Notes: generated from the sequence alone by a model not told the origin. A stretch of DNA of 38,076 nucleotides from a virus (IMGVR_UViG_3300016666_000240:1-38076), one strand, 5' to 3'; positions 1-37,644 are shown, counted from the first letter of the stretch. Made by a program: numbers and translations.

Positions 1-857
1 TGCCAAAAGGTCCCGTTGGCACCGCCGTGTTCAGGTCGCGCGTCGATGGCGTGACACGCATCAACAGTTATCGACGAATCAGCGGATATCCGCTGGTGGT
101 CTCCGCCGCACTGTCGCAGGATGAGGTGCTCGCTGCGTGGCGCCTCGATACGGTGATGCAACATGCCGTGGGCGGGGTGCTGGTGCTGCTGATTGCATTC
201 ATCGGTTACCGCATGGTGCGGCAGATCGAGTTGCGGGTAAACAGCGAGGCGGGACTGGTCGAGGCGCGCAACGAACTGGAATTGATGAATGAAACCCTGG
301 CCCGGCTTGCCAACCAGGATGGGCTGACGGGGCTGGCGAACCGGCGCCACTTCGACCAGTCGCTGCTCGCCGAATTCAGCCGCGCCCAGCGCGAAGGCAG
401 CCCGCTAGGGCTGGTGTTGCTCGATGTCGATTGCTTCAAGCAATACAACGACCTGTATGGCCATGTGGCTGGCGACGAGTGCCTGAGAAAGATCGGCAAG
501 GTGGTGGCCTACAGCATGCGCAGGCCGGGCGACCTTGCGGCGCGCTACGGTGGCGAGGAAATGGTCATTTTGTTGCCCGGAACGGATCTGGTTGGCGCCC
601 TGGCAGTGGCGGAAAGCGTGCGCCAGGCCGTGCAATCGCTGGGCATCGACCATCGGGGCAATCCCCCTGGCGTGGTGACGGCCAGTGTCGGCGTGGCGGC
701 GTTTGTACCGGCACACCTGGAAAACCAGCCGGTCGAGCTGATCGAACTCGCTGACCAGGCTTTGTATGAGGCCAAGTCCTCCGGGAGAAACCAGGTTCGC
801 CATGCATCGTCGCGCGACAGTGCCGGACGGACAGCGAGCCTTCTTGCATTTCGCTAG
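1..857 (+). CDS. Sensor diguanylate cyclase (GGDEF), 5'-truncated by window edge; host gene
   Basis: DGLTGLANRRHF, DVDCFKQYNDLYGHVAGDECL, RPGD I-site, RYGGEEM active-site motif, ADQALYEAKSSGRN; preceded by a TM helix and a Cache-like segment. Confidence 0.93.
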   Translation, partial: PKGPVGTAVFRSRVDGVTRINSYRRISGYPLVVSAALSQDEVLAAWRLDTVMQHAVGGVLVLLIAFIGYRMVRQIELRVNSEAGLVEARNELELMNETLARLANQDGLTGLANRRHFDQSLLAEFSRAQREGSPLGLVLLDVDCFKQYNDLYGHVAGDECLRKIGKVVAYSMRRPGDLAARYGGEEMVILLPGTDLVGALAVAESVRQAVQSLGIDHRGNPPGVVTASVGVAAFVPAHLENQPVELIELADQALYEAKSSGRNQVRHASSRDSAGRTASLLAFR

Positions 858-8331: not shown

Positions 8332-8535
8332 TTAGTGGGTGATTTGGGAAGCGATTTCGCGCTTGTAGTCGGCGAGGCCGCGCAAGATCAGAAAGCGCAA
8401 TAGCCAGGCACGGGATCGTTCTTGCTTGGCGGCAATGGCTTCAACCTCCAGCACTTCATCAGGCGCCAGGCGGACGCCCAAAGGCTGCGAAGTGACGCCC
8501 TTGGGAGTGCGCCCGATTTTGGATACGTTTTTCAT
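8332..8535 (-). CDS. CopG/RHH-like regulator, Cox/Cro-position first gene of early operon (67 aa)
   Basis: LGVRLAPDEVLEVEAIAAKQERSRAWLLRFLILRGL; divergent from the repressor. Confidence 0.75.
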   Translation of the reverse strand: MKNVSKIGRTPKGVTSQPLGVRLAPDEVLEVEAIAAKQERSRAWLLRFLILRGLADYKREIASQITH

Positions 8536-8570: not shown

Positions 8571-8599
8571 ACTATAGTGGACGAATGTCCACATGTCAA
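8571..8599 (-). promoter_or_regulatory. Early lytic sigma70 promoter TTGACA-N17-TATAGT
   Basis: Plus strand TGTCAA (8594-8599) and ACTATA (8571-8576) give a near-consensus promoter pointing into the early operon. Confidence 0.8.
8577..8592. promoter_or_regulatory. Probable repressor operator GTGGAC-gaat-GTCCAC
   Basis: Inverted repeat filling the spacer of the early promoter; degenerate copy GTGGTCatatGTCGTA at 8608-8623 over the repressor start. Confidence 0.7.
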
Positions 8600-8615
8600 A
8601 TAAAAAAGTGGTCAT

Positions 8616-9077
8616 ATGTCGTATTTCAAAGATCGTCTTCGCGCCGAACGAAAGCGTTTGGGCTTGAGCCAGGAGAAGTTTGCGGCCCTGGCTGGCGTAA
8701 CAAAAGACACACAATTAAATTATGAGAGTGGCTCTAGGAAGCCCGATTCTGACTACCTGATAGCTATTTGCGGGGCCGGGGTGGATTCCCACTTTTTATT
8801 GCATGGCACGCCATCTTCGGACGAGCTACCTGCAGAGGAAAGCGAGTTGCTGCTAGGTTTTCGAAAGTTAGATCTTCGGGGAAAGTTGCGTCTGCTAGGG
8901 CTTGTTGAGGGTATGGCAGAAGGAACAGCGCCAACTCCAACTCCAGCTCCTGCGGCAGCTTCGCAGACCCAGCGCAAGCAAAAGATCACTATCAAAGGCG
9001 CAGTCGGACATCAGGTTAATGGTGACGTTGCCGGCCCCTTGACCGTCAATGTTGCCAATAAAAAGACTATTAAATGA
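8616..9077 (+). CDS. XRE-family HTH prophage repressor (153 aa) with C-terminal beta-rich tail and no S24 peptidase domain
   Basis: RLRAERKRLGLSQEKFAALAGVTKDTQLNYESGSRKP HTH; divergent from the early operon. Confidence 0.9.
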   Translation: MSYFKDRLRAERKRLGLSQEKFAALAGVTKDTQLNYESGSRKPDSDYLIAICGAGVDSHFLLHGTPSSDELPAEESELLLGFRKLDLRGKLRLLGLVEGMAEGTAPTPTPAPAAASQTQRKQKITIKGAVGHQVNGDVAGPLTVNVANKKTIK

Positions 9078-9424
9078 AGAAGAAAATACTGCTGGTAGTT
9101 ACTTTAGGCTTTGGCATGTCAAGTGTTTTTGCTGGCCCGTCAAAATTCAAGGCGGAGGATGTTGTGGAACCTATAGCACCGACTATCGCGTGCATATCTG
9201 CTGAAGATTTGATTACCGGGTTTAAATACGCAAGCGCAGGGGAGCAAACTCGATTACAGGCACTGTTTGATTCAAAGCGATGCCTACTAACAGGCCCTGG
9301 AGATAGGCTGAAAGTGATCACTGTTGAAAACTCACCTCTAATTGAGGCGGTTCCTGTTTCAGTTAAAGGTGCAGTGAATGGGATTCATATTGCCGAGCCG
9401 AACTATAGAAAAGTAAAAAAATAG
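9074..9424 (+). CDS. Secreted/periplasmic protein (116 aa, signal peptide, two Cys)
   Basis: MKKKILLVVTLGFGMSSVFA signal peptide; ATGA overlap with the repressor stop. Confidence 0.75.
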   Translation: MKKKILLVVTLGFGMSSVFAGPSKFKAEDVVEPIAPTIACISAEDLITGFKYASAGEQTRLQALFDSKRCLLTGPGDRLKVITVENSPLIEAVPVSVKGAVNGIHIAEPNYRKVKK

Positions 9425-9472
9425 GCCAGCAGTATCGTAAGGCGTCGTGAGAAATAGAGTTGGATTGGAAAA

Positions 9473-10132
9473 ATGGCAGAGAAAGTAGAATTTAAGCGGC
9501 ATGTTAGTAGCGCCGTGATGGGTGACTTGAATGAGGCGCCGCGCCAAAGCAACGTAGTAAATCTCACGATAGGCTCAAAAACTGAATTTCAGCCGCTGAC
9601 AAAGCTACAGCGGCAAGATGTAACGGCCAAGGTCAAGGTACTGGTCGCCCTGGAAGGAGGCTCTCCACTGAATGTCTACCGAGTGTTGCTGAATAGTTTC
9701 GGCGCTGCCAACATGGATGCATTCCCAGGGGACAAGTACATGGCGGCCATGGAATTGCTCGATGCCCGCATTGTTGCGCAGCAAAGTGCTCCTGTGTCTG
9801 CGGTAGCGCCAAGTCCGCCTTCGCGCCTTGCGGCGGAACCGGCGATATCGTGCCTCGCCTGTACTCGTCATCAAGCCGAAATCAAGCGAATACGGGCGAT
9901 TGTCGTGGTGCAATGGGCCTTGCTGGTGGGAGCAATCCTGTTTTGTGGCTGGCTGTGGTTGCCTTCCGCTGTCGGCACTACTCCTAAATCGTCTTTAGAT
10001 ACAAGTTGTCTGGTCGATGGAAAGGGATATTCGATGGGAAGCTCTATCAAGATGCCGAACGGATCTATACGTGAATGCATGAACAACGGTCCGGAAGGGA
10101 GTCCGCGCTGGTCCCTTAGCGACAAAAAATAG
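9473..10132 (+). CDS. Bitopic membrane protein: N-terminal beta-motif, antirepressor ORF6C-like helical domain, CxxC, TM helix, C-terminal DUF1496/YnjH-like periplasmic domain
   Basis: PLTKLQRQDVTAKVK...VYRVLLNSFGAANMDAFPGDKYMAAMELL; CLAC; IVVVQWALLVGAILFCGWLWL; CLVDGKGYSMGSSIKMPNGSIREC...W. Domain names are by eye. Confidence 0.65.
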   Translation: MAEKVEFKRHVSSAVMGDLNEAPRQSNVVNLTIGSKTEFQPLTKLQRQDVTAKVKVLVALEGGSPLNVYRVLLNSFGAANMDAFPGDKYMAAMELLDARIVAQQSAPVSAVAPSPPSRLAAEPAISCLACTRHQAEIKRIRAIVVVQWALLVGAILFCGWLWLPSAVGTTPKSSLDTSCLVDGKGYSMGSSIKMPNGSIRECMNNGPEGSPRWSLSDKK

Positions 10133-10155
10133 GATTTATTGTTGCTTGCTCCATT

Positions 10156-10410
10156 TTAGGTGCACGGATAGTGGCACCGTTCGCAGCATTTGCAGCGGTG
10201 AACTTCCCTATAGTTGAAATGTGTGAGCTGCCTACTAAGGGCGGTAGCAATCGACTCAGGGTTGGCATTCGCCAGAATTTTACGCCAGATTTCTTTGGAA
10301 TGAACTTGATCCGATATTCCAAGTATCTGTCGGTGGATGTGATTACTGATCTCGTTTTCCTCGCGCTCTACCTCGTCCGTATTTTTTGTGTTTCGATTGT
10401 TCTCTTTCAT
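10156..10410 (-). CDS. Small hypothetical protein with Cys-rich C-terminus (84 aa)
   Basis: GGAGAG RBS before ATG 10410; ends HRCKCCERCHYPCT; the 195-aa track ORF is an artefactual extension into gene D. Confidence 0.55.
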   Translation of the reverse strand: MKENNRNTKNTDEVEREENEISNHIHRQILGISDQVHSKEIWRKILANANPESIATALSRQLTHFNYREVHRCKCCERCHYPCT

Positions 10411-10477
10411 AGTTCTCTCCGTGTAATTGCATTCATGCGGCTTCCGCGATGTGGATTGAAGTTTTCTTACCTGGCGC

Positions 10478-18977: not shown

Positions 18978-21962
18978 TTAGTGATACACGGGAGGTTGGC
19001 TGGTGAGCAAAAGGCGCAGATACTGAACCAGGCCCATATAGGCATTCCCCATCTGCGCGAAGCCCGCCTCGCTGCAGTGCGTGATGTCGGCCATGTATTT
19101 GTAGGTGTCCGGCCCGGCATAGTCCGCCATCGGTTTTTCGGGCGTGGTGTCGAACCCGTACACGCGATGCACGATCGAGTGATAGTCCAGCAGATAGATG
19201 CCCTCCGCCTCGCGGCCATCGAAATCGGCCACCAGGTACTTGGCCAGCAGCCACATCGCCCGCTTCACGCGCTCCGTGTTGAGCGTGCCGTATTCGCCCT
19301 GGCGCCCCGAGGACACAGGAATGCCGATGATGATTTTGCACGCCGGGCTGTCTGCCTTCACGCTGGCAATGAGCTGTTCATAGCGCGCCTTGTAGAGCGC
19401 ATAGGTGGCAGGGAAGGTATGTGCATCCGCACTGTAGAAGTCATTCGTGCCCAGCAGGACGTGCAGGATATCGGGCCGTGGAATGCCCCACGCCGCGCGA
19501 TATTTTGCATAGTTAAATGCAAAGCCGCCCAGCGTTTCCAGCGTAATGGCCGCCCAGGCAGCGCCCGTCCACACGATATAGCCGCCGCCCTCGCTCATTA
19601 CGTCACCCACGGCAGGGGCTTTCTTGCGCCCCGTGACCGTGTCGAACTGGTCCCGGATTCCAAAGAAGTAGGTGGCGTTGTAGCTGGGCGAGGCCGAGTT
19701 CGCATCAATCCAGAAGGACGTCGGCCCGAGGTGGTGGTACGCGTTGACCGGCTGCATGAACGGCGACAGGTATCCGCGGTTGTCCACTGTGAAATAGCTT
19801 TCCATCGTCCAGCCGCCCTGGCCCTCGCATTTCACGGGCTGATTGGTGGAATTGGCCGTGCGGTTGCCGATGTAGGTGATGCCGGCAGAGGCCGGTGTCG
19901 CGTTGAGAACGTTCACAAAGGTCATGCGGCCCGAAAAGCTGTCGCCGATGTTCCCCAGGTTGAGCGGCGTGGCGATGGTGGGGTCGGTAATTCGGACTTG
20001 ATACCATTTCCCGGCCGCGCCCTCCTCGAAGTCGAAGCTGCTGCCCACCACCGTGGCGCTGCCATTGACGGTGGTGTTGACCTGATCCGGCAAGGGCAGC
20101 AGTTTGCGCGCTTCGCCCGTTTCCCTGCTGCTCTCTTCACTGGCTGACATGGAAATGCCGATGTGGCCGGCATGGGCCTGGAAATCCTGGACGACGTTTT
20201 CGTAGTACAGCGCGAGTTCCTTGCCGGCCGGCACGTAGTGCGTCGTCGCCAGCACGGGCGCTTCCATGGCGGGCACGGCAGACGTGCCGGCGCCCTCGAC
20301 ATGAATGGGCGCGCCATCTGCAGCGCGCAGCTCATAGCGGTACGCCTCGAATGGCGTAGCCACATCGCCCTTTTCCAGCTGGATCGCGTCGAGGGCGTCG
20401 TGCGGCACGGTGATGCGGATGAATTCGACTCCAGGCGGGATGGTGAAGCGGTCAGCTGCCGCGTCATCGTAGCCGCCGGGAACGGGTTGTTTGTGCTGGT
20501 CGTAGAAGCAGACCATCCGGGCATACGTGCCATTGAGGACGTAGTGTCCAGGCGATACCGGGATAAAGTCCGAATAGTCGTAGGTCGCGTTGGCAACCGC
20601 TACGCCGCCGGCCGACATATAGAAGCCGGGCACCACGCTGGCCTTGTTAAATTTGTTCTTCCCCACTGGCAGGAAGGTGGTGGCGCGTGGCGTGACGCGA
20701 AGGGGTGCGCTGACGTCATCCCGCAAGCGGTAGCCGTATTCCTCATGGGCAGTGGCGACGCTGCCCGCTTCCAGCTGCAGCGAAGCGCTGTTATGCGCCA
20801 CGGCGATGCGGATGAACGCCACGCCTGCCGGTATGCGCAGGCTGTCCACCGACACTTCGCCGTTGTAGCCGCCCGCGACGACAGCCTTGTTTGCGTCGTA
20901 GCAGCACGAGAACCGGATGCCGGTCGTGTTGCACTTGTAGTCGCCGGGAACTACTGGGATGTAGTCCGAGGTGTCATAGCCGGCGTGATGGAAGAATCCA
21001 CCGCCCGAGGTGATGTACTGCCCGACGGTGACCGTGTGCGGGTTGAACACGTTTTTCCCGAGGCACAGGAAATTGGTCTTGTCCGGCGAAATGGCCTGAT
21101 TCTCCAGGTGCCTGTTGGCCACTGCGCCAGTTTCGATCTTGTCGCCGGGCAGCCAGCCGGCAGGCAGCGAAGCGGCCAGCGGCACAATCGGCACGCCAGA
21201 AGGCAGGGCGAGGCGGTACTGGAACGGCTCGTAGGCAGAAGTGGGACCGCGTTCAAGTTGAAACACCTCCATGTCCGAGGCGAACAGCGTAACGCGCACA
21301 TACGAAATGCCCTGGGGGACGATGAAGGGAGAGGTGCCGACATCCGAGCCGCCGACACGCACAATTTTGTCGCGGTCAAAGTAGCAGGAGTAACGCATGC
21401 CCGATGCATTGGCGTAGTACGTGTCTCCCGGCGTGACGGCAATGTAGTCCGACACGTTGTACACGGGATTGTCGGCCAGCAGGCCGGTTTCGGTGAGGTA
21501 CTTGCCAAGGGTGGTGGCCGTCTTGTCGAACAGGTTTTTTCCCGGCATCAGGAACAGGGTGCGCGAAGGGCCGATCAGGGCGCTGGCCGACGGATAGGCG
21601 GCGATCAGCATGGAAGCATCGCTGTTCGTCCTGCGGTATTCGAAAGCGGCGACGTCGCCATGGCCCTGCACCTTGAAAGCCTGGCCATCGGCCACGGCGG
21701 CGCGGCCCAGCGCCTCTGTCGCGTAGACGCCGGCCTGGATCAGGGCCGCATCGCGCGCGGCCAGCGCTGCAACTGTGGCGCTATTGACCTGGCCCAGCAG
21801 TCCCGCCGCATTGATCGCGGCATCGTTGTCCTTGATTAATTTGGCCAGCGAGCGTACCGGGCCGGATGCGGTGTGCACGACGGTGCTGTCATCACCGTGC
21901 GTGATCTGGTTCACCTTGTCGGCATCCGCATTGAACTGCGCCACTTTGTTTGCAAGAGTCAT
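18978..21962 (-). CDS. Extra tailspike-like protein (994 aa): three tandem ~110-aa beta-rich repeats plus C-terminal SGNH/GDSL esterase
   Basis: Repeats start GKN at residues ~141, ~302 and ~434; IGDSF (~673), EGQGGW, LGTND (~840), DITH (~962) SGNH blocks; inserted between I and H. Confidence 0.8.
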   Translation of the reverse strand: MTLANKVAQFNADADKVNQITHGDDSTVVHTASGPVRSLAKLIKDNDAAINAAGLLGQVNSATVAALAARDAALIQAGVYATEALGRAAVADGQAFKVQGHGDVAAFEYRRTNSDASMLIAAYPSASALIGPSRTLFLMPGKNLFDKTATTLGKYLTETGLLADNPVYNVSDYIAVTPGDTYYANASGMRYSCYFDRDKIVRVGGSDVGTSPFIVPQGISYVRVTLFASDMEVFQLERGPTSAYEPFQYRLALPSGVPIVPLAASLPAGWLPGDKIETGAVANRHLENQAISPDKTNFLCLGKNVFNPHTVTVGQYITSGGGFFHHAGYDTSDYIPVVPGDYKCNTTGIRFSCCYDANKAVVAGGYNGEVSVDSLRIPAGVAFIRIAVAHNSASLQLEAGSVATAHEEYGYRLRDDVSAPLRVTPRATTFLPVGKNKFNKASVVPGFYMSAGGVAVANATYDYSDFIPVSPGHYVLNGTYARMVCFYDQHKQPVPGGYDDAAADRFTIPPGVEFIRITVPHDALDAIQLEKGDVATPFEAYRYELRAADGAPIHVEGAGTSAVPAMEAPVLATTHYVPAGKELALYYENVVQDFQAHAGHIGISMSASEESSRETGEARKLLPLPDQVNTTVNGSATVVGSSFDFEEGAAGKWYQVRITDPTIATPLNLGNIGDSFSGRMTFVNVLNATPASAGITYIGNRTANSTNQPVKCEGQGGWTMESYFTVDNRGYLSPFMQPVNAYHHLGPTSFWIDANSASPSYNATYFFGIRDQFDTVTGRKKAPAVGDVMSEGGGYIVWTGAAWAAITLETLGGFAFNYAKYRAAWGIPRPDILHVLLGTNDFYSADAHTFPATYALYKARYEQLIASVKADSPACKIIIGIPVSSGRQGEYGTLNTERVKRAMWLLAKYLVADFDGREAEGIYLLDYHSIVHRVYGFDTTPEKPMADYAGPDTYKYMADITHCSEAGFAQMGNAYMGLVQYLRLLLTSQPPVYH

Positions 21963-24611: not shown

Positions 24612-25523
24612 CTACGGCGCAAACGCCAAGATTGCGGCAGTAGCGTAAGTGATAATCTGCTCGATAGTTTTATCTGCCGCTATATCAACTGCAGCATCTT
24701 TGGTCTTTTCAAACCAAGCTTTGACCCTTGAGCCTATTCCCTTCTCGCCAGATATTCTATCGACATCGGCATTGTTCGCTAGCTCTGCTGCAGTTTCCTT
24801 CGACAAGCCTATTTTCTCAAGTGCCGCAATGAGCGAGGGGAGGTCGCCCGGCTTTATGCCGTTTACTATGCTCTGCTCGACTGAATGATTTCCGAATGCC
24901 ACACCACTCACATTTCCACCGTTTATTGTTGTATTGAATATTTGACTCACTATTTTCTCCTTTTCCCTCAAATTTTCATCATGTGCTGGTACTAAGCCAG
25001 CATCAGGATAGGTCGATTTTATTTCAAGCGAGAATGCAAGAATCTTTGTTTTTATTTGATCAATCAGCGACGTCAAATGTGCTATAGGGAGCTCCATCCA
25101 AGCTCCTGTGCAATGTGACCCTGGTGTCATTGCCGAGCCGTACTGAATTGCCAAAGCGATAGGCCAATCTCTTTTGAAAGTGCCTTTCCCCTCACTCGCC
25201 TCTACCATCTGTGCACACTCTGCAACTGGCCTGCGATACTGAATGTCCTCAAAAGCCTTGCGGATATCCTCCGGCAATACAGCAGCCGATAGCTGTACAA
25301 CTCCTTCGAGTCTTCCGATCATATTTCCTTTAATCGTCCCTACAAAAATCCGGTAAGGCGGAACACTGACATCGTCAGGATAGCCCTCAAGCTCATGCTT
25401 AATCCATGTCGAAAGCGGTTCGTGTCTTAGGTCATGAGCCAATACCATACAGAGGCGAAGCAATCGGGTAACACTAGAGTCCTTAGATATTGCTTCCTCA
25501 ACTATTTGCTGTAAAAGTGACAT
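24612..25523 (-). CDS. AbiTii-domain accessory protein (303 aa), putative anti-phage moron
   Basis: MSLLQQIVEEAI...LLRLCMVLA...LSTWIKHELEGY...VPPYR is the AbiTii pattern; low GC; inserted between S and V. Confidence 0.75.
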   Translation of the reverse strand: MSLLQQIVEEAISKDSSVTRLLRLCMVLAHDLRHEPLSTWIKHELEGYPDDVSVPPYRIFVGTIKGNMIGRLEGVVQLSAAVLPEDIRKAFEDIQYRRPVAECAQMVEASEGKGTFKRDWPIALAIQYGSAMTPGSHCTGAWMELPIAHLTSLIDQIKTKILAFSLEIKSTYPDAGLVPAHDENLREKEKIVSQIFNTTINGGNVSGVAFGNHSVEQSIVNGIKPGDLPSLIAALEKIGLSKETAAELANNADVDRISGEKGIGSRVKAWFEKTKDAAVDIAADKTIEQIITYATAAILAFAP

Positions 25524-25654
25524 GTAAATTCTTTCGATGGTTTTCGTCGGCAATTTAATTGAATGGATAGGCAAGGGGCGCGCTTAGAGGGCAGTATGAT
25601 GCGACTCTATCTCATTTGATAACTAATGTCAGGTGAAGTTTGCATTGATGCATC

Positions 25655-35155: not shown

Positions 35156-35175
35156 TACTGTATGCATGTACAGTA
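35156..35175 (+). promoter_or_regulatory. LexA (SOS) box TACTGTATGCATGTACAGTA
   Basis: CTGT-N8-ACAG consensus with TA flanks, overlapping a -10-like TATACT and ~20 bp upstream of a start codon. Confidence 0.88.
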
Positions 35176-35193: not shown

Positions 35194-35532
35194 GTGATTG
35201 TTAAAATGTTAAAGATGCGCCTTGCTGGCGTAGAGGTGCCCAAGCGACGGCTGAATGATCGTTACAACTTGGCACGGCCCGGAACGTTGGAAGTCGTCGA
35301 AACGACAGACCAGGGCTTGCACCGTCTGGTGAGGCTTGCCCGCTTCACTTACGGAGAGAGCGGGAAGTATGTTGACACACTTTTCGATGTGAATTTGCTC
35401 TGGTATCGGGACGGGCGCATGGTGTTGTCAGGGTTTGAGCGCAGCAAAGTGGATATGCAATTCTGCGACTATGCGCAGTCCTGGCTGTGTTTTGTCGGGA
35501 CGGAGCCGCCGCCAATGCCGGAAGGCAGGTAG
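35194..35532 (+). CDS. SOS-regulated hypothetical protein (112 aa)
   Basis: GTG start after AGGTG RBS, just downstream of the LexA box; first gene of an operon with SRAP. Confidence 0.7.
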   Translation: MIVKMLKMRLAGVEVPKRRLNDRYNLARPGTLEVVETTDQGLHRLVRLARFTYGESGKYVDTLFDVNLLWYRDGRMVLSGFERSKVDMQFCDYAQSWLCFVGTEPPPMPEGR

Positions 35533-35542
35533 AATAAATCGC

Positions 35543-36181
35543 ATGTGCGCCGACTATACCCCCAGCCGTAGCGATCAAATCGAACAGCATTTCGCTGTCC
35601 GCTCCCCTCAATTCGACCTGCCGCCGGAAGCCTGGCCCGGCTACATGGCGCCGATCATTCGCGCGTTGCACGATGTGCCCGGTGAGCTGGAAGTCGCGCC
35701 GGCATGTTTCGGGATGGTTCCGCATTGGGCCGATATGAAGCTGGCGCGCCAGACCTACAACGCCCGCACCGAAACCGTGGCGCAGAAGCCATCCTTCCGC
35801 AATGCCTGGAAGCGCAAACAGTTCTGCATTATCCCTGCCGATAACTTCTTTGAACCCTGCTACGAGACTGGAAAGCCGGTGCGCTGGCGCATCGAGCGCG
35901 CCGATGGTATGCCGGCCGCCATTGCCGGGATATGGGAATTCCGGCCGCAAGATTTGCTGTTGTCGTTCTCGATGCTGACGATAAACGCCGATGGACACCC
36001 GCTCATGCAGCGTTTCCACAAGCCGGATGATGAAAAACGGATGGTGATGATCCTCGACCCGGACCAGTATCACAGCTGGCTAGATGGTTCCCTTGTGGCC
36101 GATGAGGATTTGTTCAAGCAGTATCCAGCAGAGCGCCTGGTGGCGGTAGCTGATCCACTTCCGCCGCGTGTGAAAAAATGA
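35543..36181 (+). CDS. SOS response-associated peptidase (SRAP / YedK / HMCES-like abasic-site protein), 212 aa
   Basis: MC start (catalytic Cys2), FGMVPHW, YNARTETVAQKPSFR, FFEP, FSMLTINA, HKPDDEKRM. Confidence 0.9.
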   Translation: MCADYTPSRSDQIEQHFAVRSPQFDLPPEAWPGYMAPIIRALHDVPGELEVAPACFGMVPHWADMKLARQTYNARTETVAQKPSFRNAWKRKQFCIIPADNFFEPCYETGKPVRWRIERADGMPAAIAGIWEFRPQDLLLSFSMLTINADGHPLMQRFHKPDDEKRMVMILDPDQYHSWLDGSLVADEDLFKQYPAERLVAVADPLPPRVKK

Positions 36182-36312: not shown

Positions 36313-36882
36313 TCAGACTTGATTCGGCTCTGCCTTATCGGAGGCATCATCGCCGTCAGAAATTGCATTTAGAAATGCATCCGCAATACTATAGACTGAC
36401 TGATAGTCATATGTTCGCCCGAATTTTGGGGTCCAGTAACGACCGTGAGCAAGCCAATGACGGTAGTTAAAAGCTCCGATTAAGTCGCCGATCAACACTT
36501 TCGGCACATCCGAGTGTTGACGCCAACAATCGAGTAAGTCCGCATCTAGTCTGGCCCGCTCTTCTCTCTCCTTATATACTTGACGTAAGGCTCGTGACAA
36601 GGCGCTCTTTTCCTTGGCATAGACTCGCCTGAAGTAATCGGTGCGAATCGCAGCTTCCACACATGAAAGCACAGATAGGGCGCTACTGTGGTCTAACTCG
36701 GCCAATACAATCGAGCGGACTTCGTCCAGCGGTAGGCCAGCATATCCGGCAAGACTTTGGTTGCCCATCAGTACGACTGTGCCAAGCGCAAAGAACTCAT
36801 AAGTTGCGGTCTGCATCACCAAATGATGACGTGCGACCTCTGCCAATGTGAGTTCTAGCTGAGAAAGGCTGACTTTAGCCAC
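36313..36882 (-). CDS. HEPN-like putative RNase (189 aa)
   Basis: Helical protein with upstream E (VEAAIR) and Rx4H motif YRHWLAHG; GTG start overlaps the upstream stop; low GC. Confidence 0.6.
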   Translation of the reverse strand: MAKVSLSQLELTLAEVARHHLVMQTATYEFFALGTVVLMGNQSLAGYAGLPLDEVRSIVLAELDHSSALSVLSCVEAAIRTDYFRRVYAKEKSALSRALRQVYKEREERARLDADLLDCWRQHSDVPKVLIGDLIGAFNYRHWLAHGRYWTPKFGRTYDYQSVYSIADAFLNAISDGDDASDKAEPNQV

Positions 36883-37411
36883 CGCGCACAACCTTCATCA
36901 GCATCTCTAAAAATACTTCAGGCGTAAGCTCAACATAGCTAGTATTTGGAGGTGGAGGCATGATTTTCCATGCCAGATCTGGCTCATGCTCAGGTACTTT
37001 AGTCTCTGCTGAGACTGTGGTCGTATTGAAGCTAAAGTAAGGTGCTTTCGCTACTTTTGGAACAAGTATCAGGCGAACAACTCCGCGAGGTCCTTCCATA
37101 TCGACGCGTCCGAACGCACCTATCAGAAATGTGCCAATAGGCTTCAGCTTAACGACCGTCGGCCCTACGGAAATCTCAATTTGTGGCGCTTTATACGCAC
37201 CAGTTTGCTCCTCGGTTATCGACACCGGCCTAACCGACATTTTAATACCCGCTTCTTCATAAGCATGGAGTGAACTCTCGACAAATTTGCGCAATACGTC
37301 CAGATGGCCGAGCCAGCGGCTCTTCTCCCGCTCGATCGTTATTACCTCCTGAGTATCTTCCTTGCCCATAGCTGTTTGCGCTTGAACAAATTCCATGAAC
37401 TTATCAACCAT
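36875..37411 (-). CDS. Hypothetical protein (178 aa), coupled partner of the HEPN-like gene
   Basis: AAGGGAG RBS before ATG 37411; ITEEQTGAYKAP...LKPIGTFLIGAFGRVDM; low GC. Confidence 0.7.
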   Translation of the reverse strand: MVDKFMEFVQAQTAMGKEDTQEVITIEREKSRWLGHLDVLRKFVESSLHAYEEAGIKMSVRPVSITEEQTGAYKAPQIEISVGPTVVKLKPIGTFLIGAFGRVDMEGPRGVVRLILVPKVAKAPYFSFNTTTVSAETKVPEHEPDLAWKIMPPPPNTSYVELTPEVFLEMLMKVVRGG

Positions 37412-37644
37412 TTTTAGCTCCCTTGCATCTAATTTGTCAATTATCTCACCTATCCATGGCCATACGCACCTTACTGAGTGCAAAGTCTGTCCTGTCCTGA
37501 GGCAGGTATTGCGCTGCGAGTGTCGGATTGATTGATGAGTTGCAACAAGGACGCCAAGGGCGAAAAAAAAGGCTGTCATTTTGTTGTCATTCCTAGGCTA
37601 AAACAGCCCAAAAACAACCCAAATAATGACAGCCTTCGTCTTGC

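What the first reader, a model, noticed from the sequence alone, without database searches (positions are those of the whole stretch)
8616..10132. Candidate new system: transmembrane signalling module wired to the prophage repressor
Seen: a three-gene unit of (1) XRE repressor lacking any LexA-like autocleavage domain, (2) a translationally coupled secreted protein with two Cys, and (3) a bitopic membrane protein with a cytoplasmic helical domain, CxxC, one TM helix and a small disulphide-type periplasmic domain. By eye the cytoplasmic domain resembles ORF6C domains of phage antirepressors and the periplasmic one resembles DUF1496/YnjH. Inference: the periplasmic protein and the membrane protein sense an envelope cue (superinfection, cell-wall stress, a ligand) and relay it to the repressor or DNA, giving a RecA-independent lysis-lysogeny control. 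I know of no description of this in P2-like phages.
Basis: partly seen in the sequence, partly recalled or inferred. Interest (0 to 1): 0.85.

Follow-up and report, generated by a model that had tools for sequence, protein, structure and literature searches.

The report
Repressor tail matches membrane partner's head
This prophage's repressor ends in a short peptide that recurs at the start of the membrane protein two genes on, and across related prophages the two peptides change in step, so the membrane protein likely binds the repressor and would tie the lysis-lysogeny switch to a cue at the cell envelope, while the secreted gene between them is interchangeable.

Summary
The three genes are real and as described, in a P2-like Janthinobacterium-type prophage. 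The conserved unit is two genes, not three. The repressor ends in a ~16-residue motif (G-x-V-G-Q-x-V-x-G-D-V) that recurs at the N-terminus of the membrane protein. Among 104 repressor clusters, 51 of 63 tailed ones have this partner against 2 of 41 untailed; tail and head covary in register (p 5e-5). Gene 2 is Sap1-like and present in only 4 of 104; its slot holds four unrelated exported proteins. In a group of relatives the TM + DUF1496-like part has no conserved start and sits in the +1 frame behind an A9 run at the repressor's end (21 of 23 loci; dN/dS 0.17), which points to a slippage-made membrane-anchored repressor. Best reading: homotypic beta-motif coupling of repressor to a bitopic envelope sensor, laid out like amyloid-signalling gene pairs. 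Binding, signal and direction are untested; this window's own partner head is degenerate; ORF6C is weak (Flk_N closer); RecA-independence is unshown. The motif pair was already noted by earlier agents of this scan; the slippage isoform was not.

The parts
8332..8535 (-). Arc/RHH-like early regulator (Cro/Cox position), first gene of the divergent early operon
   Evidence: phrog_3431 Arc-like repressor E 3.8e-10; same position in phiE52237, KS5, phiE202
8571..8599 (-). sigma70-like early promoter TTGACA-17-TATAGT in the switch region
   Evidence: 11 of 12 matches; one such site vs 1.7 expected in shuffles, so position rather than count supports it
8578..10283 (+). immunity cassette, exchanged as a block in a related prophage
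   Evidence: a contig in run X8 joins 8577 to 10284 with 2157 other bases between (30 bases on the short side); loose ends at 8576-8578 in X1
8616..9077 (+). XRE repressor, 153 aa: HTH, helical region, P/A/T linker, C-terminal motif tail; no autocleavage domain
   Evidence: homologues annotated repressor in KS5 and Carl1
8985..9053 (+). repressor tail motif (residues 124-146, core ITIKGAVGHQVNGDVA)
   Evidence: G128, G136, N145 invariant in 16 homologues; PSSM 35.7 bits vs null 99.9th percentile 6.8, own sequence in the training set
9074..9424 (+). gene 2: Sap1-like exported protein, two Cys; exchangeable slot occupant
   Evidence: NCBIfam NF046013 Sap1 E 4.5e-6, below cut-off; ESM Atlas 0.96 to PF28314 Sap1 clusters; homologues carry PF28314; 4 of 104 clusters
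9473..10132 (+). gene 3: bitopic membrane partner, 219 aa (phrog_6521)
   Evidence: (241 relatives at E<=0.001)
9485..9532 (+). partner head motif (residues 5-20, VEFKRHVSSAVMGDLN), a degenerate copy of the repressor tail motif
   Evidence: aligns with FxGDVGQxVxGDV of relatives; scores only 1.1 bits under the repressor-only PSSM
9593..9787 (+). cytoplasmic three-helix domain (Flk_N/ORF6C-like lead), dispensable in many relatives
   Evidence: absent in P0105, P0125, P0143, P0150
9851..9955 (+). CxxC (127-130), amphipathic run and transmembrane helix (143-161), N-in by charge
10001..10117 (+). predicted periplasmic DUF1496-like beta domain with Cys179-Cys202
   Evidence: weak fold likeness to fibronectin type I / VWC modules (Foldseek E 0.24-1.3; Z 5.4)

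Best explanation
The repressor and the membrane protein share a short, covarying end motif and likely bind through it, so that the membrane protein would act as an envelope sensor that, once clustered by a cue at its periplasmic domain, is predicted to draw the repressor off its operators and favour induction. Shown: adjacency, the shared motif at repressor C-terminus and partner N-terminus, in-register covariation, a minimal partner of head + TM + DUF1496-like domain, and in relatives a start-poor TM + DUF1496-like ORF under purifying selection that opens in the +1 frame from an A9 run at the repressor's end. Inferred: that the motifs stack as beta strands (disordered in the monomer model, Gly/Gln/Asn/Val pattern, same gene-pair layout as amyloid signalling); that slippage makes a membrane-anchored repressor whose own tail replaces the partner head; that the output is derepression rather than stabilised lysogeny (about 55:45). 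Gene 2 is an exchangeable exported passenger or accessory. The cue is unknown; superinfection or envelope damage is a guess.
For: Linkage: 51 of 63 tailed vs 2 of 41 untailed clusters at 90% identity, p 1.7e-15; 20 of 21 vs 1 of 29 at 60%. One motif: 50 of 51 partner heads score above the null 99th percentile under a PSSM built only from repressor tails, and 50 of 51 tails under the partner-only PSSM. Covariation: cognate BLOSUM 33.5 vs 25.4 +/- 1.2 permuted (n 36, p 5e-5), still p 1.5e-4 at 50% clusters (n 14); in-register excess 8.3 vs 0.3 +/- 1.2 with columns permuted, neighbouring 16-mer control p 0.19. Unrelated TM proteins take the partner position yet start with the cognate motif: L084, L090, L097/L099, Mu-like phage B3 ORF18/ORF20. 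Slip loci: 10 of 10 (group A) and 6 of 6 (group B) have A8-9 then T and an open +1 frame, median dN/dS 0.17 vs 1.1-1.4 in the other frames; A>=8 in only 8 of 56 repressors with a separate full partner; searching with the ORF itself gave 23 unique loci, 21 intact in the same A9/+1 arrangement, 2 with extra indels. The window's nearest repressor N-domain (L014, 84%) carries the slip type. One repressor has the helical domain inside it, before the tail (P0161).
Against: No binding, fibril, expression or phenotype data. The window's own partner head is degenerate: 1.1 bits under the repressor-only PSSM, below the null 99th percentile of 2.8, 5 of 16 identities, no better than the non-cognate mean of 5.5. 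12 of 63 tailed repressors lack a family partner; about 8 remain after setting aside L084, L097 (other motif-headed TM proteins), L117 (slip ORF) and L056 (broken partner), so the tail can persist alone. Tail and partner are adjacent and travel as one block, so linkage counts are not independent events. Score thresholds were set after seeing the scores, and training rows are among the tested loci. In group A a TTG/ATG at codon 13 in most loci could start a separate secreted DUF1496 protein. A9 runs also occur with no long +1 frame (L009, L010, L054, L057). The motif lacks the G-phi-Q-phi-G core of RHIM/PP/BASS3.
Confidence: 0.55

Rival explanations
1. The two proteins do couple through the motif, but as a constitutive tuner: the tail is the repressor's own oligomerisation element and the partner or slip isoform buffers or anchors repressor, setting the spontaneous induction rate or strengthening immunity, with no envelope signal relayed.
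For: Tail-only loci exist; partners with no DUF1496-like domain, only TM helices, exist (L090, L097, B3 ORF20); lambda RexB is a membrane protein that modulates the CI switch (bioRxiv 2021.04.19.439022, abstract and two-hybrid section read).
Against: In this lineage the periplasmic domain keeps invariant Cys/Gly/Trp and is retained even in minimal and slip forms, and the slot beside it holds exported proteins.
Confidence: 0.22
2. Genes 2 and 3 are ordinary lysogenic-conversion or superinfection-exclusion morons riding on the repressor transcript; the shared motif is a relic of a local duplication without function.
For: Low GC and variable neighbours, including defence-like genes downstream (DUF4062, KAP NTPase, HEPN); gene 2 is Sap1-like and exchangeable; K139 carries a periplasmic immunity gene glo (PMC4870250, passages; its exclusion role recalled from Nesper 1999); degenerate head in this window.
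Against: In-register covariation down to 50% clusters, recurrence on unrelated TM proteins and in Mu-like B3, near absence of partners beside untailed repressors (2 of 41, both with divergent tails), and the selected +1 ORFs. Likely true for gene 2 alone.
Confidence: 0.13
3. One reading: gene 2 binds the periplasmic domain of gene 3 as an obligatory co-sensor and the ORF6C-like domain acts as the antirepressor or binds DNA.
For: Gene 2 was found only in this slot (2 of 401 genomes, both there); 13 of 14 inserts between repressor and partner are exported proteins; the helical domain is fused into repressor P0161 and resembles partner-binding three-helix domains of phage recombination proteins (Z 8.8 and 6.9).
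Against: Gene 2 in 4 of 104 clusters; slot occupants belong to four unrelated families; helical domain dispensable; ORF6C match weak or absent; Z under 13 for helical bundles may be a common arrangement.
Confidence: 0.1

Closest known systems
Amyloid signalling gene pairs: fungal NWD2/HET-S, bacterial BASS1-10 (Dyrka et al., bioRxiv 2020.01.06.895854, passages read) and E. coli Bab/Agp BASS11 (Ibarlosa et al., bioRxiv 2024.11.07.622273, introduction and passages read)
   Same: Adjacent genes; one short motif at the C-terminus of the effector and the N-terminus of the receptor; Gly-broken beta pattern; BASS11 residues given in the text (I-G-S-V-x-Q) resemble G-x-V-G-Q here.
   Different: Effector is a DNA-binding prophage repressor, not a Bell/HeLo/TIR death domain; receptor is a small bitopic membrane protein, not an NLR or TGP protein; no G-phi-Q-phi-G core; fibril formation untested; slippage isoform not described there. 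Motif logos are in figures I could not see.
Lambda RexA/RexB (Thomason et al., bioRxiv 2021.04.19.439022; abstract and two-hybrid section read)
   Same: Co-transcribed with the repressor; RexA binds CI and assists induction; inner-membrane RexB gives a two-hybrid signal with CI and modulates RexA.
   Different: No Rex family hit in Pfam/PHROGs/NCBIfam scans; CI autocleaves; no shared motif; RexB is polytopic.
phrog_6521 'membrane protein' of Burkholderia and Ralstonia P2-like phages (KS5 gp12, phiE52237 gp24, phiE202 gp22, RSA1 ORF33)
   Same: Same family and position.
   Different: Annotated only as membrane protein; Lynch et al. 2010 (PMC3091744, passages) list it without function. The Burkholderia copies seen lack the CxxC and gene 2.
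Sap1 (BPSL0097, PF28314/NF046013; PMC9884982, abstract and passages)
   Same: Gene 2 resembles it in length, signal peptide and profile.
   Different: 26.7 bits vs cut-off 125; here a prophage cargo gene in an environmental host; no adhesion data.
Flk (membrane-anchored flagellar regulator; Flk_N PF27202) and ORF6C (PF10552)
   Same: The helical domain gives weak profile hits to both; relative P0178 hits Flk at 3.8e-13.
   Different: Window protein is far below both cut-offs; different C-terminal part and gene context.

Membership tests
P2-like (Peduoviridae) prophage | gpA nickase, Ogr, P2-type head and tail genes, integrase | tested here: met
LexA/lambda CI-type autocleaving repressor | C-terminal S24 peptidase domain | tested here: not met
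   no S24 hit; unstructured tail
Amyloid signalling pair (FASS/BASS) | shared motif at effector C-terminus and receptor N-terminus in neighbouring genes | tested here: met
   (family level; weak in the window's own pair)
Amyloid signalling pair (FASS/BASS) | NLR/TGP receptor and Bell/HeLo/TIR/CHAT effector | tested here: not met
   XRE repressor and small bitopic protein
RHIM/PP/BASS3 | G-phi-Q-phi-G core (Dyrka et al.) | tested here: not met
   consensus is G-x-V-G-Q-x-V-x-G-D-V
BASS11 | motif consensus | tested here: inconclusive
   only residues named in the text could be compared; logo not visible
Amyloid signalling pair (FASS/BASS) | cross-beta fibrils and templated conversion | not testable with these tools
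   needs peptides, ThT/EM, GFP foci
DUF1496 (PF07383) | score over the Pfam cut-off | tested here: inconclusive
   window 11.8 bits vs 20.2; 8 of 18 members weak; family member P0071 22.2 bits
ORF6C (PF10552) | profile match | tested here: inconclusive
   none in window; 2 of 18 and 1 of 99 weak; no profile-profile test run
Flk_N (PF27202) / Flk | profile match of the helical domain | tested here: inconclusive
   NF007987 E 0.047 window, 3.8e-13 P0178, all below cut-off; Flk_N on 10% of the top Atlas cluster
Sap1 (NF046013 equivalog) | score over the cut-off of 125 bits | tested here: not met
   26.7 bits; broader PF28314 is on record for all 15 homologues
RexAB | RexA and polytopic RexB homologues | tested here: not met
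   no such hit; single TM
Programmed slippage/frameshift (relatives, not this window) | conserved slippery run, overlapping selected ORF without own start | tested here: inconclusive
   run and selection met; start-like codon 13 in many group A loci; product not observed; window has only A5

The most novel reading that the evidence does not exclude
A prion-like lysis-lysogeny switch: a bitopic envelope receptor nucleates cross-beta assembly of the prophage repressor's tail and inactivates it without RecA or proteolysis, and in one lineage the receptor is the repressor itself, made membrane-anchored by slippage on an A9 run. It would be amyloid signalling wired to a transcription factor, spread over P2-like and Mu-like phages.
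Probability: 0.3. Interest if true: 0.93.

Novelty: new variant of a known kind. Interest (0 to 1): 0.74.

Why it matters
P2-like repressors have no autocleavage domain, and what induces many such prophages is an open question. This gives a precise, mutable handle (a 16-residue motif on two proteins, an A9 run in relatives) for testing signal-controlled, cleavage-free induction, in cultured phages such as KS5, phiE202 and B3. If the motifs stack as amyloid, functional amyloid signalling would extend from cell death to gene regulation. It would also inform efforts to make temperate Burkholderia phages obligately lytic for therapy.

Tried and rejected
Complex prediction of 2 repressors + 2 partner N-terminal parts (residues 1-105) with 35-row alignments: 'no answer', score 0.00 against a mark of 0.32, controls not folded; it bears neither way. 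Foldseek of the gene-3 model: nothing at E<=0.001; the periplasmic domain was not folded alone. Gene 2 was not folded; tblastn of it against 50,697 phage records found nothing. No in-frame HTH-TM-DUF1496 fusion among 99 of the 150 listed relatives scanned (only P0161 had an HTH). L215, with A8, looked like a fixed fusion but has a second indel in a C run and is treated as a homopolymer error; L200/L217 have a downstream indel. The +1 frames behind A8 in L055, L149, L150, L154, L157 may be antisense shadows near gpD and were not counted. Repeat search gave no convincing operator. RNA runs: contigs only, partial cover, no evidence on expression. A class-wide sample found the repressor in 4 of 400 genomes, one genome unscored. 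Literature searches for a published description found none: (open-access PMC and bioRxiv only; most subscription papers and bioRxiv supplements not visible, and they may hold BASS motif tables that bear on membership).

Full report
Setting. The window is a P2-like prophage: integrase, gpA nickase, Ogr and P2-type head and tail genes. Named close relatives are from Janthinobacterium. The three genes lie between a divergent Arc-like gene (8332-8535) and convergent gpD, as in KS5, phiE52237, phiE202 and RSA1.

Observation. All three ORFs and the described anatomy are confirmed. The repressor has no peptidase domain and a disordered tail. Gene 3 is phrog_6521, with 241 relatives at E<=0.001 among 50%-identity representatives. 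The helical domain's best structural matches are a chain of the 80alpha Sak-SaPI2 Stl complex (Z 8.8, rmsd 1.5, 61 residues; I take it for the Sak C-terminal domain, from recall), NinB and the Red-beta C-terminal domain; for a small helical bundle that is not decisive.

What is conserved. I gathered loci with repressor queries (all 77 matches were fetched). Of 188 loci with a repressor, 182 had a whole gene and at least 700 bases downstream; 17 fetched through gene 3, hand-picked or the window itself were left out of the linkage count, leaving 165 loci in 104 clusters at 90% identity. A partner-family gene followed 51 of 63 repressors with the tail motif and 2 of 41 without (p 1.7e-15; 20 of 21 vs 1 of 29 at 60%); both exceptions have divergent tails. 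Gene 2 was in 4 of 104. Thresholds were set after seeing the scores, training rows overlap the tested loci, and kin share gene order, so the p values overstate independence.

The shared motif. The repressor tail and the partner's first 20 residues follow one pattern, about [FIV]-x-G-x-[VI]-G-Q-x-[VI]-x-G-[DN]-[VI]. In 51 pairs, 50 heads beat the 99th percentile of a null under a PSSM made only from tails (42 the 99.9th; the null used 50-residue windows, heads were scanned over 70), and 50 tails did so under the head-only PSSM. Cognate pairs are more alike than shuffled pairs at every clustering level from 90% (n 51) to 50% (n 14; p 1.5e-4), only in register (8.3 vs 0.3 +/- 1.2), and not for the neighbouring 16-mer (p 0.19). 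Unrelated membrane proteins take the partner position and still begin with the local variant: L097 tail FTDATIGQQFSGDV, head FDGATIGQVFTGHV; L090, L084 likewise; Mu-like B3 tail ISVTGDGNRTAGRDF, ORF20 head IEVTGSNNIVAGRDF. Untailed P2-like repressors of Mana and D14A have no such neighbour annotated. Minimal partners keep head + TM + DUF1496-like domain and drop the helical domain. Against this: the window's own head is degenerate (1.1 bits), and about 8 of 63 tailed repressors have no partner in the stretch read.

Slippage-type relatives. In ten loci the repressor ends in A9-T and a 91-94-codon TM + DUF1496-like ORF with no head motif opens in the +1 frame; in six more (A8-9) the ORF also has a head. 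Median dN/dS is 0.17 in that frame and 1.1-1.4 in the others, which carry stops. All 30 terminal Lys codons of the first group are AAA against 30 of 80 in the gene bodies; A>=8 occurs in 8 of 56 repressors with a separate full partner. Searching with the ORF itself returned 30 loci that I examined, 23 unique (several overlap the first ten; 9 weaker matches that lie in long full-partner frames were left out): 21 intact in the same arrangement, 2 with extra indels. Losing one A would give repressor-tail-TM-DUF1496. In the second group W1, C6 and W8 are conserved before any start-like codon shared by the group; in the first group a TTG/ATG/CTG at codon 13 (8 of 10) could start a separate secreted protein, though L196, L199 and L204 have no ATG/GTG/TTG in the first 20 codons. 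I put the fusion at about 70%. Of 53 motif-bearing partner clusters, 13 have no canonical start before the motif. The window itself has only A5 and separate genes, but its nearest repressor N-domain (L014, 84%) is of the slip type, and the N-domain tree shows tail + partner blocks shuffled behind different HTHs. One contig swaps 8578-10283 as a block.

Gene 2. It is Sap1-like; Sap1 is reported as a surface attachment protein of B. pseudomallei (PMC9884982, abstract and passages). Close homologues were in 2 of 401 genomes, both in this slot. Of 14 loci with an insert between repressor and partner, 13 hold an exported-type protein of four families (Sap1-like 4, tRNA_anti-like 3, two unnamed families of 4 and 2 grouped by eye) and one an IS. 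That fits exclusion or conversion cargo, or a swappable periplasmic accessory.

Mechanism. Most likely (0.55) the head binds the tail by homotypic beta stacking, and clustering of the partner through its disulphide-bonded outer domain, perhaps helped by a CxxC clasp, removes repressor from the early promoter. Partner and repressor share a transcript by layout, so the partner should be quiet until triggered. Binding, amyloid state, cue and direction are all inferred. RecA-independence is not shown: a LexA-box-like site sits before an unknown ORF and SRAP at 35158.

Comparison and novelty. It is laid out like amyloid-signalling pairs (Dyrka 2020, passages; Ibarlosa 2024, introduction and passages) but fails their receptor, effector and RHIM-core criteria; it would work on the switch like lambda RexAB (abstract and one section) without homology. 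Searches of open-access PMC and bioRxiv found no description. The scan's own notes already hold ten findings on the repressor-tail/partner-head motif, eight shown; I reached the motif, before that look-up, and they are not independent support. Look-ups for slippage fusion and for Sap1 returned nothing, so those two points and the demotion of gene 2 are what this report adds.

Noticed in passing
window 35158-35173 and 35200-36181 (+): LexA-box-like CTGT-N8-ACAG (box recalled; only match, 0.26 expected by chance) before a ~105-aa unknown ORF (phrog_5560, E 0.003) and an SRAP gene; an SOS-controlled cassette that could supply an SOS induction route.
   Followed up: partly
window 24612-25574 (-): AbiTii-domain gene (E 4.6e-35) inserted among tail genes, lower GC; likely anti-phage cargo.
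   Followed up: no
window 18978-21962 (-): 994-aa gene between baseplate and tail-fibre genes with a GDSL-like esterase domain near its end; possible capsule/EPS deacetylase spike.
   Followed up: no
window 10156-10422 (-): Small ORF right after gpD, phrog_25421 (E 1.6e-9), ending in a Cys-rich stretch, convergent on gene 3.
   Followed up: no
L175:1024-1683 (P0161): Repressor with the partner-type helical domain inserted before its tail, and still followed by a full partner.
   Followed up: partly
L007:3484-3938: The +1 frame behind the repressor's A9 run stays open for 151 codons into the Sap1-like gene; in close relative L009 it closes after 13.
   Followed up: partly
L015, L074, L075, L133, L137, L153, L164, L127: Motif-headed partner ORFs overlap the repressor end in the -1 frame with no ATG/GTG/TTG before the motif in those checked; L074, L137 and L017/L127 carry A_AAA_AAG, a known -1 frameshift heptamer (recalled).
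   Followed up: partly
L011/L056/L108, P0141: Partner head and a decayed helical domain fused to an unrelated two-TM protein.
   Followed up: no
L078:3665-4099: A second tailed XRE gene follows the tailed repressor in place of a membrane partner.
   Followed up: no
L006, L008, L010, L051, L060, L133 downstream of the partner: The slot before gpD is a cargo hotspot: DUF4062, WYL, KAP NTPase, HEPN/Toprim-N and exported proteins.
   Followed up: partly
window 27-857 and 36313-37579: GGDEF gene at the left end is probably host DNA; two low-GC unknown ORFs at the right end have no PHROG or Pfam hit.
   Followed up: no
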